DNA of 64,000 bases, from contig NC_091478.1 of the NCBI RefSeq assembly GCF_036971445.1, positions 62,930,001 through 62,994,000 on the forward strand. The letters are read 5' to 3'. Made by a program: the position numbers and the translations under genes. Source of the stretch: Narcine bancroftii. Lineage: Eukaryota. A model generated the notes under the pieces. The model was not told the origin of the DNA. It searched no databases and saw only the letters and a list, made by a program, of their open reading frames with translations. Positions 373 to 46,827 of the stretch are shown piece after piece; the stretch's first letter is position 1; each line of letters begins with the position of its first letter.

Positions 373-3300
373 CTATGGCACAAAGTCTTCGTATCGTTTG
401 GGCACTTTCCGGTTTCGTTTCGGCCTGCCTGCGATATTGTCGTCGCTTCTCGGTTGTTCACTCTCGGCGTCGGAAATACTGCTCGCCTCGGCTTCGGGTG
501 TTTCTGGCGCTCTAGTCACTTCATCAGGAGTGCTAGTAACTGCCTCTGGAACATCATCAGGTCTCTCAGTTTCAGCATCTCGTATTGGCCTTTCAACCTC
601 TTCGCTCGATGTATCTCTGGACTGGTACCTTTTTACACTTGATAAATTTTTCTTATACAGGACTCCAGTCGGAGACTTGACTGTCACCATACTGCCACTT
701 CTGGATACAACAGTATAGGGTTGATGGTAATAAGGTGTGTCTAGCTTACCACCAGTTTCATGCCTCACTAGAACATTATCTCCTGGCATGATGTCTGAGT
801 ACTTGGCTCCACGTTTCGAATCTGTGTACAACTTTGCTGCACCTTTCTTTTCAGCACCATGGTCCCTCATCTCCTGGTCGTCTCGGATTTCCTTTATTTC
901 TGGCATTTTTGTGTGGATTTTTCTCCCAAAAAATGCTTCTGCAGGACTTTTTCCAGTGGTTGCATGAGGCGTTGCTCAATAGACAGCCACATAAGATAGC
1001 AATGCTTCTCGCCAATTTTGTCCTGTGTGTGCAATCCTCAATCGTTTTTCAATGTACTGGTTTTGTCTCTCTACTTCTCCGTTGGCTTGCGGCCATTTTG
1101 AGTTACTTTATGATGGTGGATACCTGTGGTCCTCATGTATTCCGCAAATGTCTCTGAAATGAATTGTGGACCATTTCAGAGTATAATGTAACAGGTAATC
1201 CATATCTTGCGAATATCTCTGCTAACGCTTGTATTGTTTTTTCAGTGGTTGTGGACTTCAACACCACGTACTCATAGTATCTGCTGTAGTAATCTATCAC
1301 TACCATAATTGATTCACCCCCGTCGGTAAAGGTCCAAGAAAATCAACAGCTACGTCGATCCATGGTCCTGTCGGAAGTTGCGTACTCCGGATCGGTTCTG
1401 GCGGATTACTCCTACTTGTGATTTGACATCCGTGACAAGTTTTAACTAATTTCTCTGCGTCTTTATCACAACCTGGCCACCATACCTTGGTCCTGAGGTT
1501 TTGCTTGGTACCAACAATGCCTAGGTGTCCTTCATGCGCTAAGGATACGATCTTCGGTCTCAATCTTTGCGGTATCACCAATCTGCAACCTCTTAATACA
1601 CACTTTCCGATGCAACAAAGTTCGTCTCTAATGGGAATGTAAGCCTTGTGAGTACACTTGTCCCATTGTCCACTCCGTATGCATTCTCTTACTTCCCTGA
1701 GTTCTGGATCACGTTCGGATTCTCTCTCGACTTCCTTCGTAGTCACAGCTTTCGGTGTCGCCTAAATAGCTATGAAGCTTACAAAGCTCTCTGTTTCTGT
1801 TCCCAATTCTGACTTGGATTGTGGATCACCATCCTTCACCAATCTGGACAGCGGATCAGCAATGTTTGTTTTCCCTGCAATGTGGATTACTTTATATTTG
1901 TAGGGTTGTAGTCTGAGTACCCATCTCTCTATTCTGGCACATGGTTTGGATCTAGGTGCATAGATCACCTCTAACGGCTTATGATCTGTGATGAGTTCAA
2001 ATTCAATGCCGTATAAATATGCATGGAACCTCTCACAGGCCCATACAAGTCCGAGTGCTTCTTTCTCTGTCTGAGAGTATCTTCTTTCCACATCTGATAA
2101 CAATCTGCTGGCATAGGCAATGATTCTTGGTCCTCCATCATGCATCTGGACCAACACAGCTCCTAAACCAACCGGGCTGGCATTCGCTATGACTTTGGTT
2201 GATGCCGCCGGATCGTAATATCCAAGAGTTTTTGCATCTGTCAGGCTTTGCTTCAGCGCTGTGAACGCTTTCTTCTGCTCAGATCCAAAATGAAAAGGTA
2301 CACCTTTCCTTAGTGGTTCTGCCACTGTAGCGAAATTAGGAATGAACTTTGCACAAAAATTGACCAATCCCAGGAAACTCCTCACCTCTGTTGCGTTCTT
2401 AGGTGCACATGCCTCTGCAATAGCTTTCACCTTGGCCTCTGCAGGGTTTAGTCCTTCCCATGTAAGTCTGTGTCCCATGAAGTCCATTTCTGACACACCG
2501 AACTGGCACTTGTTTCCATTCACAGTAAGGCCTGCCTCCTGTAGTCTAGATAGTACACACCTCAACCGTTTGTCATGCTCTTCCTTCATTGGTGCATGGA
2601 CTATGATGTCGTCAGAAATGTAGGCAACTCCAGGAATGCCTTGAATTACTCGATGGATTTCATACTGGTAGATCTCCGAAGCTGCATTAATTCCAAATGA
2701 TAGTCTCTTGTAACGATACAATCCACAGTGAGTCACAAATGTAGTTACATCTCGGGAACCTGGATCCAGCTCTAATTGATGATAGCCCCATTTCAGATCA
2801 ATTTTTGAGAATACCTTGCTGGTAGTTAGTTCTTGAAGTATTTCCTCCACTGTTGGTATAGGGTGTCGTTCTCTAATTATAGTTTCATTGGCCATTCTCA
2901 TGTCAACACATAGTCTTATGTCACCCTTTGGTTTGGGCACAATCACTACAGGACTGACCCATTGTGTCGAATGTTCCACCGGTTCAATAATGTCTTGTTC
3001 AATCAATTCTTTAATTTTGGCTTCGACTTTCCCACGAAGTCCAAACGGAGTTCAGCGCATTGGTTGTGCCTTGGGTTTGACTGTTTCATCTACCACTAGC
3101 TTTAATTGTCGACCTTTCAGCTTTCCTACTCCTTGGAAGACTGCGGGGAATTCTTGCTTCATATCCTCGTATGACTGAATTGAATTGACACAAGCTCCAA
3201 TATGAAGTATTGCCAGGTCTTCTTCTACTCAGCAATGGTTCTCCCCTCTCTTCTATGACCATAAACTCTGCTTCGGTGTACTTATCTCCAGCTTCAACAG

Positions 3301-4447
3301 TTGCAGTAAAACATCCAATGGTCTGCAATGGCTTGGTTGCTGTGTATGGATACAGTTTCTTGGAACACTTCTTTGAGGTACAGATGATCTTTTTCCTTTT
3401 CAACTTCTCCCATAAATGTTGATCAATCACATTACTGTCACTGCCTGAGTCTACAATGACCTGCACTGTCACTCCACCAATGATCACTGGGACCTTCTCA
3501 TGACGTACTTCATTCAACGTAAATTGGTAACAACTCTGTTCCTCCTGGGTATCATCATCGTCACTGTCTATCTGGCGAATGGTATCTTTCTTTCCAGGAT
3601 ACTTTCCTTTCCCCCAGGCTTTGCCTTTGGAAGCTGTACTCTTCCTCTTCTGGTCTGCATTGGACTTGCTTTTGCACTTCTTTGCAAAGTGGTCCTAACC
3701 TCCACACTTTCTGCAAACTTTGCCTTTGGCCGGGCAATATGGGTCTTTTCCAAAGTGACCTCGGTTTCCACATCGATAACACTCCACGTCCTGTGTCGAC
3801 GTATATCTTGGCTGATTATGGCGATGTGAGAGCCTCTTAATTTGCTGGCTTGAGTTGTCTTTCAGGGTCATGGTATGAAATTGCCCTTCAACAGCCTCTA
3901 ATGCAGCAGCAATGGTTAAAGCATCGGTGAGTTCCAACTCACTCCCTCTTTCCAGTAGACGTCTTCTGAGTTTATCTGATCTACAGTGCTGTACGACTTG
4001 ATCCAATAATTGGTTGTCCAAATCAGCTGGCATGTAATTGCATCCAACAGCTAGCTGGCGTAGCTTCGTCACGTACTGAGCAATTGTCTGGCCATTTTCT
4101 TGTCTCGTTCTCCGAAACAAATGGCGTTGAAATGTAGCATTCGGTGTCACTACAAAGTGTGCATTTAATGCATCTACCGCTTTCTGGTACTCATCCTTTC
4201 TTCCAGTATTCAAAAGTGTCTTAAATGTTTCCCGAACTGCGGGTCCAGCAGTGAAAAGAAGTAACGCCCTTCTCTACGCTTTTTGTTCAACTGTACCGGT
4301 ATCTAGAAATAGGCCACGACTGTCGGCATAGGATTCAAATTCTTCCAGCCATGCCTTTCACTTCACACTTACATCACTTGCATCACTCGTCGGGTCAAAA
4401 TGAGCAATTCCACTATGTGTAAGAAAGTCACAGTTTGCACCAGCCAT
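373..4447 (-). pseudogene. Gypsy gag-pol polyprotein (disrupted)
   Basis: ORF fragments 3695-4213 (gag), 3086-3517 (protease), 1762-3006 (RT/RNase H), 1300-1746 and 373-906 (integrase); probable ATG at 4447. Confidence 0.93.
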
Positions 4448-4577: not shown

Positions 4578-4752
4578 TGTCACATTTGTGGCCCGAAATG
4601 TGAAGTTAATAAAACATTAAACACAAGTTTTATCAGGTAAACTTCTCAGTGGCTTTATTTTCCTGTTTCCTTTGTTCTCCTGCTTGTGTTCTTATCTCTC
4701 TCTCATACCACGTGACTTCCGGTACATCTCATACATATTCATTATCATGACA
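4578..4752 (-). repeat. 5' LTR of the Gypsy element
   Basis: Direct repeat of 20-194, immediately next to the PBS. Confidence 0.96.
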
Positions 4753-6108: not shown

Positions 6109-6133
6109 ATGGTTCTCCTTCTGCTTCTCCGAG
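6109..6133 (+). CDS. Gene A exon 1: leader peptide MVLLLLLR
   Basis: ATG plus hydrophobic run, phase-1 donor G|GTAATA; 15 nt shorter than the gene B leader. Confidence 0.8.
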
Positions 6134-6249: not shown

Positions 6250-6573
6250 CAGTTGCAGATCAGCGAGGTTTTCATGTAAATCAATTACCCAAAGAAACCA
6301 GTATACCAGTCGGGGGAAATGTTACCTTTTATTGTGTGTTGCCCATCATCCGCGACAAGTCCAGTGTGAAGGTCTACTGGTGGAAGGAGGGTGAGAATGC
6401 ATACCAACACAGCGATGTCGCCAATGGAAAACGATATGGTCTCCGAGGTAGAGCAAGTTGGTACTTTGAGTTGTGCAAAGCAACTGTCCAAGATTCTGGA
6501 GTATATCGCTGTTCCGTCATCGGTCCGGAAATGGTTGCAATCAATGGAAGTGGATCGCGTCTAATTGTTCACG
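6250..6573 (+). CDS. Gene A exon 2: Ig V-set domain, germline-joined VJ type
   Basis: Acceptor TTTTCTCAG and donor G|GTAAAT, phase 1-1, 324 nt. Translates AVADQRGFHVNQLPKETSIPVGGNVTFYCVLPIIRDKSSVKVYWWKEG...YFELCKATVQDSGVYRCSVIGPEMVAINGSGSRLIVH, with B-strand Cys, C-strand Trp, DSGxYxC and J-like GSGSRLIV. Confidence 0.95.
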
Positions 6574-8252: not shown

Positions 8253-8549
8253 TGGCGCCAACTCCACTGAAAATCTACTCCAAGACTGTTGATGGGAATC
8301 CACTCACTAGACATGTTCTCGTATGCGAAACGGCTGCATTTTACCCGGAGAATCTCACCCTAATTTGGTACTGAAATGGAACGAAAATCACAGCGGGAAC
8401 TCATACAAGAAAAGAGAAGAACGCGGAGGGACTGTATGTAGTTTCCAGCGATTTAACCTACAGCAACGGCGAGGATCAATATGCCTGCAAGGTATATCAC
8501 CTCTCTCTCCAGACTCCAGCCGTTGCCAGGTATTCTGTTGCGAAACAAG
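8253..8549 (+). pseudogene. Gene A exon 3: Ig C1-set domain with in-frame TGA at 8372-8374
   Basis: Acceptor GTATTTCAG and donor G|GTATGT, phase 1-1, 297 nt. Translates VAPTPLKIYSKTVDGNPLTRHVLVCETAAFYPENLTLIWY*NGTKITAGTHTRKEKNAEGLYVVSSDLTYSNGEDQYACKVYHLSLQTPAVARYSVAKQ. C1 hallmarks: C..FYP, W, N.xG.Y, YxCxVxH. Confidence 0.92.
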
Positions 8550-10379: not shown

Positions 10380-13090
10380 TTTGGCTGCATTACTAACACA
10401 CTGTTCAGATTGCTAAGCAAGCTCAACTGCACATGGAAAGCTGGCATCTCGTTGACTATGTCATCACCCGACAATGGGACATCTCTGATGTTGGTATCAC
10501 CAGAATTAAGCGTGGAGCTGAGTGCTCAACTGATCATCAAATGGAGTGGTTGGATCTATGTTTATCGATCAAACCTTCAAGCAGACTGATTGCAGCCAAA
10601 CCACCCAAAAAGCTGAACACCACCAAATTGAAACACCGTGAATGTGGCAATGCACCTAAATCCTCCATGGAAACTACACTAAGCAGACTGGTTGAGAATC
10701 CACCAGATGATATTACTGAGCACAAGAATGCTTTCAAAGAAACAACTTATGGCACTGTTTAGGACACTTTGGGGAAAGTCAAGCCCAAACATCAGGATTA
10801 GTTTAATGAGTACAACCAATTTGGCACAAGACCTTCTAATAGCTAAGACAGTTGCACACCAAGCTTGTCTTCAACACCCAAACTCAAGTTCCAAAAAGCA
10901 TGCCTTTTTGAGTGCAAAATCAACTTTGCAGAAGCAGCTCAGAGATTTCCAAGACCAGTGGTGGATGAACAAGGCCAAGGAGTTACAAGCCTTCGCTGAC
11001 TGTAATGACTCAAGAATGAAGCAATCAAGGTTGTCTATGGTCCATCAAAGCAAGGTACCTCACAACTCTTGAGCAAAGACAGTAACTCCATCTTAACTGA
11101 AAAGTCAGAGCACATGAAAAGATGGCAAGAACCCTTCTATGAGCTGTTGGATAGATTAGGAATCATCACCGATGAAGCACTGGGTACCCTCAACTCATAT
11201 TGTTTGAGCCAGATGCTCCCCCCTACTCTTCACAAGGTCATCAAAGCCATCAAACAGCTAAAACCCAACAAAGCACCAGAGCCTAATGGTATTGCAGCTG
11301 AGATCTACCAGTATGGTGGCAACACACTGATATCATGCCAACACCAGCTGTTCACAAAGTTGTGGGAAACTGCAAAACTACCACAAGACTTCAAAGGCGC
11401 ATTAATCCTGACCATCTACAAGAACAAGGGAGGCAAGAAAAATTACAAAAATTATCGTGGACGTCTCTCTTCTGTCAGTTGTGGGAAAATGCCTTGCAGA
11501 GATCACCCCTAGCTGTTTGGTGTCTGACATCAATGACAACATCCTTTCACAAAGCCATTGTGGTTTTCGAGCAGGCCGAAGCAGAGTGGATATGATTTTC
11601 TCACTGAGGCAGCTTCAAGAGAAATGTGTGGAGCAGCAGATAAGTCTCTGTCACATTTGTTGATCTAACCAAAGATGGCCTACAGAAGCTCTTACCAAAT
11701 TTCAGTTGCCCTCCTCCCATGCCTAACCAACATCATCCCTGAATTCCACAAGGTATGGAAGGCTGCATCAATATGTGTGATGAGTTGTCAGACATATTTC
11801 CCATCTCCAATGGTGTAAAACAGGGTTAAGTTTTGGCCCCTACACTGTTTGGACTATTCTTCACAGTTGTTCTTCAAGATGCCACATCAGACCTGAAGTT
11901 AGGGGTCTTCCTAAAAATGAGGGCTGATGATGGGCTTCTCAACCTCGCAAGACTTAGATCAAAAACAAAGGTCAAGGACATAGTTGCGCATGAGCTATAG
12001 TTTGTTGATGACTGTGTACTGGTTGTCCACTCTCTCAAAGACTTACATGAGATCACCAGTCACTTTGCCAGTTCTGCCAAGAGATGCAGATTGACAATCA
12101 GCTTTAAAAAGACAGAAGTTTTTGACCAACTGGCCCCTTGACCAAGTTACGAAGAACCAACTTTCCTCATTGATGACATTCTTCTCAATGCTGCCAACAA
12201 ACTTGGGCAGCACAATAATATCCTCAGCTTCGCTAGATGTAGAGATTGAATCAAGAACCAGAAAGGTTTGCTTTGCTGAAAGATCAGGTTTGGTCAGAGA
12301 GCATCAGGTTGGCCAGCAAGTGCAAGGTGTACAGGGCCACTGTCATATCAGGTATGTCGTCAACAGTCCAGTGAGTCGTGATTTGTTGTAAATGCCTTGA
12401 TGCATTGTATAAATTCTTGCAGTTAATAATTACGAAATTAAATCATTCAAATTTCATGGGGAAGTACTGATTTCATTTCCAATTTGTATGAAAAACTTGT
12501 GCGTCTGAGGCTTGGCCAGTCAAATGCCATTTGCAATCACTTTTTTTTATTTGCTGCACTACAAAAGTATAGAGATATTAATCGTTCACATTTTATACCC
12601 ACCTCATTATCATTAGGTTTCTTCTGTTTGCGATTTTTATATGGATATGAGACATGGTGCCCATATCAGAGTCACTTTTGTCAGATTGACCAACTGTGGC
12701 GGCATCATTACGTTCTCTGATGAAAATCACCTGTGGCGAGACAAGGCCTTCAATATCAAGGTCCTTTCTAGAGCCAGAATGCCAGCAGTTTCATCATTAG
12801 TGATGTCAGGCCAACTGTGCTGGGAAGGACATGTTGTCAAAATGCCTGACAGAAAACTGCCCAAGGACATATTGTAAAGCCAACTGTACCCAAAATTGAG
12901 GAGGCCAGTGACTACAGTACAAGGATGTTCTGCACAAGAGTCATAAGAAAGATGGCATTGCCCCATCAACATGGCTCAAGATTGCTTGCAGTGGAGGGAC
13001 CCCATCAGAAAAGGTTTGCATGCTGTTGGAGAACAAGCTCCAAGAAGCAACAGAGGAAAGGCACAGAAAGCAAGCAGAAGAAGACAATTG
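10380..13090 (+). mobile_element. Old RTE-clade LINE (endonuclease and RT remnants), interrupted at 12350-12637
   Basis: WHLVDYVITR, KAPEPNGIAAEIY, GFRAGRSRVDMIFSLRQLQEKCVEQ, GVKQG..LAPTLF and GHVVKMPDRKLPKDIL, with many frameshifts. Confidence 0.9.
12350..12637 (+). repeat. Third copy of the C1 donor site and first about 290 bp of the downstream intron
   Basis: AGGTATGTCGTCAACAGTCCAGTGAGTCGTGATTTGTTG... aligns to 8548-8850 and 41263-41565. Confidence 0.9.
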
Positions 13091-15618: not shown

Positions 15619-15735
15619 ATTGTGTCTTCATACGTCCTTCCTTGTACATTAGATATGCTGTGGGTTTGACCTTTCTGTTCCTGGCCATCGTTTGCCTTAC
15701 CATTGGGGCGCGTAGTCAATTACCCATTTATAAAG
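15619..15735 (+). CDS. Activating-type transmembrane exon (Arg in TM, stalk Cys)
   Basis: Acceptor TTATTCTTTCAG and donor AAAG|GTACGT, phase 1-1, 117 nt. Translates DCVFIRPSLYIRYAVGLTFLFLAIVCLTIGARSQLPIYK. Confidence 0.8.
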
Positions 15736-16062: not shown

Positions 16063-16969
16063 TTCCCTCAATTATGCATCATTGTAAATGCTCAACTTTG
16101 AAGGATATCGATAACATACAGATATTTTCTCATGTGCAGAATGCATTCATGGTATATTTATTCAAACAGCACACCTGACTTGTAGAAACATACACATCAC
16201 AATGAAAAACATATTTGTCAGGGGAAGTCGTGTATCTCATCCTCATGGTGAAATATATTTCCCGAAGAATATATGAGGGTGTTGCACCATCTTTTGGCAG
16301 ATACTTTATTGGCTGTTTCTGATTCAAATGTAACCAAAAGCAGACTGAAAATTGGAATGATTAATTTGCAGAAAATGTACCTATTTATGGGACTAATTTT
16401 AAATAATCTTTATGTATTGAAGACAGGTGTTTGTACATTTTATTTATGGAGTAATAGGCTTCCTCCAGCCTCTTGCACTAGGCTAATTGCAAAGCACAAT
16501 GTAAAGAGAACTGTTTAAAATATCCGCCGGGACTGAAAAAAGGAATGTAAGGATTTCAATCTCACACTTAGTATTCAACCTGGGTGACTTACAATGCACT
16601 GATGTTACATATTGTATTTGACATTTCAGGTAATCAATATGCTGGTGTTCATTTCTCCCTCCAGCAGGCTTCTACAGTTCCTCTCCACTGGCTCAATAAT
16701 TGGTTTAATCTGACCACATTTTGCTTATCTATTTCAACTTATCCACCAACCATCTTCTCAAAATAATACCAAAGGCTTTCTATAAGAATAAAGAATAGGC
16801 ACAGATTATTTGGTAAATAGGTAACTAATAGAACGCCATTATATTCAACTGTAATATATGACTATATGAGGCATGAGGTATTTGTTGTATGTGGAGTAAA
16901 TACGAAGAATTTCTGATGTGCTGGTTGATGGGGTTTTCATTTCATTGGGCCTTTTCATACATATTACTG

Positions 16970-40010: not shown

Positions 40011-40050
40011 ATGTCAGGGACTGCGATTGTTCTCCTTCTGCTTCTCCGAG
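40011..40050 (+). CDS. Gene B exon 1: leader peptide MSGTAIVLLLLLR
   Basis: AGAATG context, hydrophobic core, phase-1 donor G|GTAATA. Confidence 0.85.
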
Positions 40051-40166: not shown

Positions 40167-40490
40167 CAGTTGCAGATCAGCGAGGTTTTCATGTAAATCA
40201 ATTACCCAAAGAAACCAGTATACCAGTCGGGGGAAATGTTACCTTTTATTGTGTGTTCCCCATCATCCGCGACAAGTCCAGTGTGAAGGTCTACTGGTGG
40301 AAGGAGGGTGAGAATGCATACCAACACAGCGATGTCGCCAATGGAAAACGATATGGTCTCCGAGGTAGAGCAAGTTGGTACTTTGAGTTGTGCAAAGCAA
40401 CTGTCCAAGATTCTGGAGTATATCGCTGTTCCGTCATCGGTCCGGAAATGGTTGCAATCAATGGAAGTGGATCACGTCTAATTGTTCACG
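40167..40490 (+). CDS. Gene B exon 2: VJ-type Ig V domain
   Basis: 324 nt. Differs from gene A at two positions by eye (CVF vs CVL, and a silent TCA/TCG); same splice sites. Confidence 0.95.
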
Positions 40491-41151: not shown

Positions 41152-41264
41152 TGTAGTTTCCAGCGATTTAACCTACAGCAACGGCGAGGATCAATATGCC
41201 TGCAAGGTATATCACCTCTCTCTCCAGACTCCAGCCGTTGCCAGGTATTCTGTTGCGAAACAAG
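41152..41264 (+). CDS. Gene B exon 3 (visible 3' part): C1-set domain
   Basis: VVSSDLTYSNGEDQYACKVYHLSLQTPAVARYSVAKQ, identical to 8437-8549; donor G|GTATGT. Confidence 0.9.
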
Positions 41265-42652: not shown

Positions 42653-42766
42653 ATTCTCGCAATACACTCGCAAACTACCTGGTTCCTAGTGGCGTGGTGG
42701 TTGGATTACTGATTTTAGTGCTAATGATTGTTGTCGGGGTACGGTTGGGACGACAGGAACTTGAAG
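42653..42766 (+). CDS. Gene B exon 4: uncharged transmembrane segment
   Basis: Acceptor ATAACTTTGCAG and donor GAAG|GTAAGA, phase 1-1, 114 nt. Translates DSRNTLANYLVPSGVVVGLLILVLMIVVGVRLGRQELE. Confidence 0.9.
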
Positions 42767-45399: not shown

Positions 45400-45443
45400 G
45401 TGAAGAGGAATGTGGGATGGAACCAAATGGCCACCAGGATCAG
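45400..45443 (+). CDS. Gene B exon 5: short cytoplasmic exon GEEECGMEPNGHQDQ
   Basis: Acceptor TTTCGCCTCTTTCAAG and donor CAG|GTATGT. Phase 1 to 0 bridges the TM exon and the terminal exon exactly. Confidence 0.7.
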
Positions 45444-46476: not shown

Positions 46477-46827
46477 AGAGAAGAGAACAACATGGTACAT
46501 TATGTTGCAATACATTTCGACACGTCCAGGAAGGCCACAAAACAAAAACGTCTTGACGCAAGGCATGCTTTTGATCAGGTGAGTGTAAATAACGGTGTAG
46601 AGAGTTCATTAATTGGATACTATTTCTCAAGCATACGATTTGAGCAGCACATCCCAAAACAAATGAAAAAGCCAAATAGCAGTATTTTCTCAATTGCCTT
46701 TACAGAAAATGCAAGGGGAACCAGCACAGAGTATAGGATAAACTGCAAAGAGAGCACAGAATATGCGGAGGTGAAAACAAAAAAAGACCGCGGAGCAACA
46801 GAGGCGCTTTATTCAACAATAAGATAA
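46477..46827 (+). CDS. Gene B terminal cytoplasmic exon with ITIM/ITSM motifs
   Basis: Acceptor GAACTTTTCAG, phase 0, open to TAA. Translates REENNMVHYVAIHF...STEYAEVKTKKDRGATEALYSTIR*. VHYVAI fits ITIM, TEYAEV fits ITSM, ALYSTI is ITIM-like. Confidence 0.82.
   Translation, partial: REENNMVHYVAIHFDTSRKATKQKRLDARHAFDQVSVNNGVESSLIGYYFSSIRFEQHIPKQMKKPNSSIFSIAFTENARGTSTEYRINCKESTEYAEVKTKKDRGATEALYSTIR

What the first reader, a model, noticed from the sequence alone, without database searches (positions are those of the whole stretch)
6250..6573. V and J-like strand encoded in one exon, with no recombination signal and an extra cysteine
After DSGVYRC the exon continues through a fixed CDR3-like loop (SVIGPEMVAIN) into GSGSRLIV, the J diglycine-bulge pattern with Asn where antigen receptors have Phe/Trp. 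I see no CACAGTG heptamer at the V end. A third Cys (6474-6476, YFELCK) is unpaired in both genes and could link chains. Such VJ exons are the proposed substrate type for the ancestral RAG transposon insertion; alternatively this could be a germline-joined derivative of a TCR or IgL gene, which cartilaginous fish do have.
Basis: partly seen in the sequence, partly recalled or inferred. Interest (0 to 1): 0.7.

Follow-up and report, generated by a model that had tools for sequence, protein, structure and literature searches.

The report
Ray paired VJ-C1 immune receptor gene
This exon is the antibody-like tip of one damaged copy in a tandem cluster of non-rearranging surface-receptor genes shared by sharks, rays and chimaeras, which likely act as paired 'off' and 'on' switches on immune cells and are likely not relics of the antibody ancestor.

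Summary
In detail: a 324-nt exon encodes V plus a J-like strand, with Asn118, no RSS and a third Cys. The interpretation mostly fails. The exon is one of at least 10 related VJ exons in a 0.44-Mb array beside AMFR and BBS2, on a different contig from the MHC, IgH/TCRαδ and IgL loci. Intact neighbours encode leader–VJ–C1–TM with ITIM/ITSM-like tails, and spliced RNA contigs confirm several junctions. RefSeq already models the family from chimaera to rays under loose 'SIRP-like' labels. The family forms its own branch (95/98), apart from Ig/TCR V; a joint clade with IgL is rejected (p=0.017), one with TCRαδ is not (p=0.11). Asn118 is the family norm (63 of 89, a glycan sequon); the extra Cys is private to this ray's copies (1 of 89). 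This copy has a stop in C1 and a unique Arg-bearing TM exon, so it is likely a damaged activating partner whose V was homogenised by gene conversion. This scan found the family before in other genomes; I found no paper describing it.

The parts
6109..6133 (+). Copy 1 leader exon, coding part (MVLLLLLR); 15 nt shorter, in frame, than the leader of copies 2-5
   Evidence: leader-V joint 6133|6250 seen in an RNA contig that carries the longer, copy 2-5 leader
6250..6573 (+). Copy 1 VJ exon (the finding); tandem acceptor gives isoforms differing by one Ala
   Evidence: RefSeq isoforms X1/X2 of copy 2 differ by that residue
6474..6476 (+). Non-canonical Cys at the end of strand E, where the family mostly has Leu
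   Evidence: Cys in 1 of 89, Leu in 54 of 89; present in all six near-identical copies
6543..6551 (+). Asn-Gly-Ser: Asn at J position 118 forming an N-glycosylation sequon
   Evidence: Asn in 63 of 89, sequon in 59 of 89 family V domains
8253..8549 (+). Copy 1 C1-set exon with an in-frame TGA at 8372-8374 (CGA in copies 3 and 4)
   Evidence: Pfam C1-set 45.5 bits for the intact copy
15619..15735 (+). Candidate TM exon of copy 1 (phase 1/1, IRYAVGLTFLFLAIVCLTIG, Arg at the TM start); single copy in the genome
   Evidence: only such exon in 8550-39000, 2 of 200 shuffles give one (criteria set after seeing it); family profile score is weak, 4.4 bits; BLASTP to P0005 gave no alignment
16668..16699 (+). 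Possible short last exon of copy 1 (GFYSSSPLAQ-stop); speculative
   Evidence: splice-site reading only
40011..40050 (+). Copy 2 leader exon
40167..40490 (+). Copy 2 VJ exon
41152..41264 (+). Copy 2 C1 exon, 3' part only; the 5' part is missing, as in copy 5; RefSeq and RNA skip it
   Evidence: contig of run X4 joins V to TM
42653..42766 (+). Copy 2 TM exon, uncharged
45400..45443 (+). Copy 2 cytoplasmic exon 1
   Evidence: joints in 4 of 4 runs
46477..46578 (+). Copy 2 cytoplasmic exon 2 with ITIM-like VHYVAI
46706..46827 (+). Copy 2 last exon; 10 nt shorter than in copies 3-5, which puts the ITSM-like TEYAEV and ALYSTI out of frame
   Evidence: joint 46578|46706 in 4 of 4 runs

Best explanation
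The exon encodes the single V domain of one copy in a tandem array of non-rearranging leader–VJ–C1–TM genes, a cartilaginous-fish family that likely works as paired inhibitory and activating immune-cell receptors, and this copy is likely a damaged activating partner. Shown: the array, the exon layout, splicing of sister copies, ITIM/ITSM-like tails in copies 3-5, the C1 stop in this copy, and a branch separate from Ig/TCR. Inferred: tailed members are phosphorylated on ligand binding and recruit SHP-1/2; members with a TM Arg and short tail pair with an ITAM adaptor such as FcRγ; the short V, with a glycan site at position 118 and no Gln44, binds as a single domain instead of pairing like VH/VL; gene conversion copies the V exon between partners so that they see the same ligand. 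This copy is most likely a null allele or pseudogene (about 0.55), else it skips C1 and makes a V–TM(Arg) protein (about 0.35), as copy 2 or 5 already does.
For: Ten related V exons at C22:62.92-63.36 Mb, six of them 84-100% identical, with C1 exons behind them. Copy 3 gives a full open L-V-C1-TM-tail product with IHYVAI, TEYAEV and ALYSTI. GT..AG joints for leader-V (1 of 4 runs) and the three tail junctions (4 of 4 runs), plus contigs bridging V-TM and C1-TM. A profile of 28 relatives found 38 proteins at E<=1e-10; all whose source is legible are cartilaginous fish, and each species' hits share one contig length. Of 79 family proteins, 68 had a called TM, 39 of these had at least one ITIM-like hexamer, and 9 had a tail of at most 20 residues with Arg/Lys at the TM start (one dubious) (isoforms and partial models included). 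These are the marks of paired receptors (PMC3533184 passage). Tree of 82 V domains: family 33 rows 95/98, antigen-receptor side 98/85. Trp41-Cys104 spacing 39-45 in 78 of 89 family domains against 55-60 in parsed Ig/TCR controls. V exons of copy 1 and 2-5 differ at 1 of about 71 synonymous sites while upstream flanks are 82-98% identical per 100 nt; copy 0 shares a 255-nt V tract at 97% while its flanks are 64-79% and its C1 69% identical.
Against: No ligand, cell type, phosphorylation or adaptor binding was tested. The Arg-bearing TM exon rests on splice sites, phase, hydrophobicity and a post-hoc shuffle test; the family profile scores it only 4.4 bits and BLASTP found no match to the best-looking homologue. 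It lies 7 kb behind C1 beyond a second C1-donor remnant at 12350, so it may belong to a lost gene. The tree has only 106 columns, its bootstrap had not settled, and a family+TCRαδ clade was not rejected (p 0.107). SIRP, PRARP, NITR and UrIg sequences were not in the tree. RNA comes from one study whose tissues are not given.
Confidence: 0.78

Rival explanations
1. The family is the cartilaginous-fish branch of a known tetrapod family (SIRP, or the V-C1-ITIM PRARP genes), so this is simply an orthologue.
For: RefSeq labels many members SIRPα/β-like. The Atlas's nearest clusters by features for a chimaera member are SIRPα-named (0.97). SIRPα scores 112.7 bits against the family profile. PRARP is recalled as V-C1-TM-ITIM/ITSM (paper not held).
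Against: One C1, not two as in SIRPα (PMC2785349 passages). The PDB scores are summed over domains and IgA and UrIg2 score higher. No bony-vertebrate V-C1 protein appeared in two profile searches (word-limited). Neighbours are AMFR and BBS2, recalled as human 16q13, not the 20p13 SIRP region; SEP-domain genes (NSFL1C, a recalled SIRP neighbour, and paralogues) were found on C5, C15 and C17, none on C22.
Confidence: 0.12
2. The family is the closest living sister of the VJ-C1 gene that the RAG transposon split.
For: VJ in one exon followed by a true C1 exon, short leader exon about 116 nt upstream, present from chimaera to rays; best single-sequence PDB hits are VNARs (E 3e-5); family+TCRαδ clade not rejected.
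Against: Not on the MHC contig (C5:189-191 Mb) nor the IgH/TCRαδ (C11) or IgL contigs, where UrIg/UrIg2 and NKp30 lie (PMC12227049). The V lacks the CDR2/C'' region and Phe118. Its place relative to antigen receptors is unresolved in the tree. VNAR likeness is weak (about 25% identity) and follows the shared short length; NCAM domains tie or lead in the fold search (Z 14.5, rmsd 1.6 over 92).
Confidence: 0.06
3. A germline-joined IgL or TCR gene that later gained a TM and a signalling tail.
For: Germline-joined light chains exist in cartilaginous fish (PMC2193156, PMC2192082 listings; PMC12227049) and in this genome. Joining removes the RSS.
Against: Family+IgL clade rejected (p-AU 0.017, 44 rows, LG+G4 quick tree). 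The genome's joined IgL exons keep Phe118 and 55-59 spacing; the family has neither.
Confidence: 0.04

Closest known systems
RefSeq-modelled cartilaginous-fish V-C1 cluster (e.g. XP_069755609 Narcine bancroftii = copy 2; XP_059849417 Hypanus; XP_038661932 Scyliorhinus; XP_007902823-25 Callorhinchus)
   Same: Same family: V exon 99% to the first, 35-54% to the others; same exon layout.
   Different: Only automatic, inconsistent names (SIRP-like, tapasin-related, CD276, Ig lambda-like). No paper found that defines it.
SIRP family (SIRPα/β/γ)
   Same: VJ-type V, C1-set domain, ITIM-bearing and TM-charged pairs (PMC2785349, PMC3533184, PMC11599192 passages).
   Different: One C1 instead of two; shorter V; different neighbours; activating members carry Arg at the TM start; no CD47 binding shown.
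PRARP (Fu et al. 2019; title seen in a reference list, content recalled)
   Same: Non-rearranging VJ with C1 and ITIM/ITSM in non-avian species (recalled).
   Different: Not compared directly; recalled as MHC-paralogon linked and few-copy, against a large array beside AMFR/BBS2 here.
UrIg / UrIg2 (PMC12227049)
   Same: Single-exon VJ followed by C1 in elasmobranchs.
   Different: UrIg/UrIg2 have 3-11 C1 domains, disulfide-linked homodimers via G-strand and C1 cysteines, and MHC or AgRC linkage; this family has one C1, tyrosine-motif tails and another locus.
NKp30 (NCR3)
   Same: Single-exon VJ, G-strand glycan motif, TM Arg in activating form (recalled).
   Different: No C1 in NKp30; the genome's NKp30-like exons are on C5:181 Mb near the MHC and fall outside the family in the tree.

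Membership tests
Rearranging Ig/TCR V segment | V ends after Cys104 with an RSS; J separate | tested here: not met
   No RSS, J-like strand in the same exon; 20 of 20 parsed split V controls show one
Germline-joined IgL | V groups with IgL V | tested here: not met
   Separate branch; AU p 0.017. IgL labels are from motifs and adjacent C exons, not a database
Germline-joined IgL | Phe118 FGxG, Gln44, full C'/C'' region | tested here: not met
   Asn118, Glu44, Trp-Cys spacing 44 against 55-60
Germline-joined IgL | Secreted V-C with no TM or tail | tested here: not met
   TM and three tail exons, spliced
TCR-derived joined gene | V groups with TCR V | tested here: inconclusive
   Free tree separates them but AU p 0.107 for family+TCRαδ
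SIRP | VJ-type V plus C1-set domain | tested here: met
   Pfam V-set and C1-set; FYP and CxVxH motifs, 13 residues between Cys and Trp (PMC2785349)
SIRP | Two C1 domains (V-C1-C1) | tested here: not met
   One C1 exon per gene; a few relatives have two (P0032)
SIRP | Inhibitory member with ITIMs and activating member with charged TM | tested here: met
   Motifs by sequence only
SIRP | Phylogenetic grouping with SIRP V | not tested
   No SIRP sequence was available to place in the tree
SIRP | Synteny with the SIRP locus | tested here: inconclusive
   Neighbours AMFR, BBS2, EEPD1-like; SEP-domain genes not on C22; human map positions recalled
SIRP | Binds CD47 | not testable with these tools
   none
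UrIg/UrIg2 | VJ plus three or more C1 domains, MHC or AgRC linkage | tested here: not met
   One C1; C22 versus MHC on C5 and IgH/TCRαδ on C11
NKp30 | Single V without C1, MHC-linked | tested here: not met
   C1 exon present; NKp30-like exons are elsewhere
PRARP | Orthology by tree and synteny | not tested
   Paper not held; no PRARP sequence retrieved
Paired IgSF receptors (general kind) | Clustered genes, near-identical ectodomains, ITIM versus short tail with TM Arg/Lys | tested here: met
   definition from PMC3533184; TM exon of copy 1 is a candidate only

The most novel reading that the evidence does not exclude
The cluster beside AMFR/BBS2 is an unnamed, chondrichthyan-wide family descended directly from the VJ-C1 membrane receptor that the RAG transposon split, keeping the ancestral innate form (monomeric V-C1 with ITIM or adaptor signalling) outside the MHC paralogons. 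That would make it a better model of the pre-adaptive receptor than UrIg.
Probability: 0.07. Interest if true: 0.75.

Novelty: new member of a known kind. Interest (0 to 1): 0.3.

Why it matters
For the exon itself, little: joined VJ exons are common and this copy is damaged. The family matters more. Sharks and rays have few described innate paired receptors, and this one is old (chimaera to rays), multi-copy, mislabelled in databases and mapped here to AMFR/BBS2, a handle for testing orthology to SIRP, PRARP or the reptile multi-VJ ITIM receptors. The array shows birth-and-death evolution in progress: two intact, four altered copies, and V exons converted between genes with different TM exons.

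Tried and rejected
No RNA holder was listed as RNA on record; the four contig sets show spliced joints, but none carried copy-1-specific letters (6341G, short leader, 8372T) and the candidate TM exon had no cover; this is not evidence of silence. Pfam MHC_II_beta search of the genome found nothing and its control did not ring. PDB searches with family profiles were swamped by multi-domain sums and did not rank single domains. Fold searches gave only generic Ig matches, tied within 1 Z; SIRP and NKp30 were not listed, which excludes nothing. One PDB search was run in a wrong frame and gave nothing (redone). The AU test on all 82 rows did not finish, so it was run on 44 rows with a simpler model. 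Rows left out of the tree: near-duplicate TCRαδ/IgH/BTN loci, L003, L005, L009, L012, L013, and most family isoforms. Flank gene hunt covered 147 of 3371 candidate ORFs, so neighbours are incomplete; 63.104-63.15, 63.18-63.26 and 63.29-63.315 Mb were not read. Reptile multi-VJ ITIM receptors among the hits did not group with the family. Papers on PRARP, the primordial immune complex, UrIg and shark NKp30 were not held; supplements were not opened and may list these genes.

Full report
Observation. The stretch 6250-6573 is a 324-nt exon, phase 1 at both ends, open throughout. It scores as Pfam V-set (E 1.9e-7) and folds as an Ig sandwich with pLDDT 85. A second copy at 40167-40490 differs at 2 nt. 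No RSS-like pair is near either exon; a near-identical scan hit 20 of 20 parsed split TCR/IgH V segments and 0 of 7 parsed family exons. Since germline joining also removes the RSS, this does not by itself decide the origin.

The gene. The best protein hit is a RefSeq model named from Narcine bancroftii that matches copy 2 exon by exon. Copy 1 has a leader exon at 6109-6133, the VJ exon, and a C1-set exon at 8253-8549 with TGA at 8372 where copies 3 and 4 have CGA. It lacks the TM and tail exons of copies 2-5. Instead a single-copy, phase-1/1, 117-nt exon at 15619-15735 encodes a hydrophobic span with Arg at its start. It was the only such exon in 30 kb and 2 of 200 shuffles gave one, with criteria chosen after seeing it. 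The family profile scores it weakly and a pairwise test found nothing, so it remains a candidate. Copy 2 has lost the 5' part of C1 and 10 nt of its last exon, keeping VHYVAI but losing TEYAEV and ALYSTI. Copies 3 and 4, outside the window, carry all seven exons, and copy 3 translates as an intact leader–VJ–C1–TM–tail with all three tyrosine motifs. Copy 5 lacks the 5' C1 but keeps the tail; copy 0 is decayed.

Expression. Four contig sets from one study, RNA by guess, show GT..AG joints for leader-V (1 of 4) and three downstream junctions (4 of 4), one contig bridging V to TM without C1 and one bridging C1 to TM. They carry the letters of copies 2-5 at 6341 and in the leader, and C at 8372. 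One contig has copy-1-type C1 letters without the stop, so an intact allele of that C1 type is transcribed. Copy 1 itself was not seen, which proves nothing.

The array and its place. Ten related V exons lie at C22:62.92-63.36 Mb (a lower bound). AMFR (G2BR domain) and BBS2 lie 60-160 kb downstream and an EEPD1-like exon (name recalled; Pfam gives helix-hairpin-helix) 140 kb upstream. MHC class I is on C5:189-191 Mb, NKp30-like exons on C5:181 Mb, TCRαδ/IgH-type V segments on C11 and IgL-type on C8, C9, C12 (labels from motifs and RSS). That AMFR/BBS2 correspond to human 16q13, outside the MHC paralogons, is recalled.

The family. Relatives at 31-54% identity come from chimaera, sharks, skates and rays. 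A 28-sequence profile returned 38 proteins at E<=1e-10 out of 5578 candidates, all legible ones cartilaginous fish, with automatic names from SIRPα-like to Ig lambda-like. Of 79 family proteins, 68 had a called TM, 39 an ITIM-like hexamer and 9 a short tail with Arg/Lys at the TM start. In 89 parsed of 92 distinct family V domains, position 118 is Asn in 63, forming a sequon in 59; the position of the extra Cys is Leu in 54 and Cys in 1, the record of copy 2; Trp41-Cys104 spacing is 39-45 in 78 (11 gave 49, probably mis-parsed on an earlier Trp) against 55-60 for Ig/TCR controls. So Asn118 is the family signature and the Cys is a private substitution spread through this ray's six copies. By IMGT counting (recalled) it sits at position 92, at the end of strand E, away from the face that pairs V domains.

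Phylogeny. In an 82-row, 106-column tree the 33 family rows form one side of a branch (95/98) and the 13 antigen-receptor rows, with five unlabelled VJ exons, another (98/85); deeper forks are open and the bootstrap had not settled. On 44 rows, family+IgL was rejected (p 0.017) and family+TCRαδ was not (p 0.107). SIRP, PRARP, NITR, UrIg and VNAR were not in the tree.

Conversion. Copy 1 differs from copies 2-5 at 1 of about 71 synonymous V sites while upstream flanks are about 90% identical; copy 0 shares 255 nt of V at 97% while its flanks are 64-79% and its C1 69% identical. This fits recent conversion of V exons between genes of different age and different TM.

Mechanism. Paired receptors are clustered genes with similar ectodomains, ITIM tails in inhibitory members and a TM Arg/Lys with short tail in activating members (PMC3533184, passages). 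The family fits this by sequence. I infer SHP-1/2 recruitment by tailed copies, adaptor pairing by Arg-bearing ones, and single-domain binding because a glycan at 118 and loss of Gln44 would spoil a VH/VL-type interface. None of this was tested. Copy 1 is likely a null activating-type allele or pseudogene, or makes a C1-skipped V–TM protein.

Literature. PMC12227049 (outline and parts 1-4 of 8: introduction, results, discussion) names UrIg2 as the best candidate substrate because of MHC/AgRC linkage and multi-C1 structure, features missing here. PMC11599192 (passages) lists CD79, NITR, SIRP, CD8, NKp30 and PRARP as joined-VJ IgSF. PMC10751288 (passages) places VJ-C1 remnants in MHC paralogons. 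PMC2785349 (passages) gives SIRP's V-C1-C1 and C1 hallmarks. PMC2193156 and PMC2192082 were seen as listings only. Nine searches found no description of this cluster; the PRARP, primordial-immune-complex, UrIg and shark NKp30 papers were not held, and supplements were not read. Eight earlier notes of this scan describe what appears to be the same family in other genomes; my reading was set down before seeing them, and none was returned with the AMFR/BBS2 link.

Verdict. Real exon, ordinary kind: a damaged member of a paired VJ-C1 receptor family of cartilaginous fish, modelled in databases but apparently unnamed. Not an Ig light-chain derivative, and no better a RAG-substrate candidate than other joined-VJ genes. 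Interest 0.3.

Noticed in passing
G000:C22:62,971,152-63,074,385: Copies 2-5 sit in a roughly 35.8-kb tandem repeat; a 67.5-kb stretch aligns to its shifted self at 99.5%. Recent duplication or an assembly artefact; V exons of copies 3 and 4 are identical.
   Followed up: partly
L004, L005 (copies 3 and 4): The two intact copies carry a fourth V cysteine (KRYCL, strand D), near the private strand-E Cys; an intra-domain bond is possible but was not modelled.
   Followed up: no
L010/L020/L164, G000:C22:63.16-63.175 Mb, minus strand: An inverted paralogue with one-to-one relatives in sharks and rays (P0038, P0074, P0152) whose relatives' tails have Cys clusters and no ITIM; may be the conserved framework member of the cluster.
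   Followed up: partly
L061 and L102, G000:C9:2.91-2.93 Mb: Single-exon VJ domains with full Ig/TCR-like length that fall on the antigen-receptor side of the tree; not identified.
   Followed up: no
L074 and L076, G000:C5:180.9-181.1 Mb: Two NKp30-like VJ exons about 9 Mb from MHC class I, among butyrophilin-like V exons.
   Followed up: partly
P0045, P0075, P0092, P0093, P0104: Turtle, viper and lizard receptors with 3-5 tandem VJ-type domains and ITIM-like tails, under unrelated automatic names; not grouped with this family; their synteny is worth checking.
   Followed up: partly
window 376-4273, minus strand: Broken gag/pol ORFs of an LTR retrotransposon (Ty3/gypsy-like by recalled motifs), with a 174-nt direct repeat at 20-193 and 4578-4751.
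   Followed up: no
window 12350-12637: A second copy (88%) of the C1 donor site and following intron, without the exon: remnant of a lost or partly duplicated gene between C1 and the candidate TM exon.
   Followed up: partly
window 16,900-63,900: Many LINE fragments (reverse transcriptase and endonuclease ORFs on both strands), including at least five near-identical 3' ends of about 450 nt.
   Followed up: no
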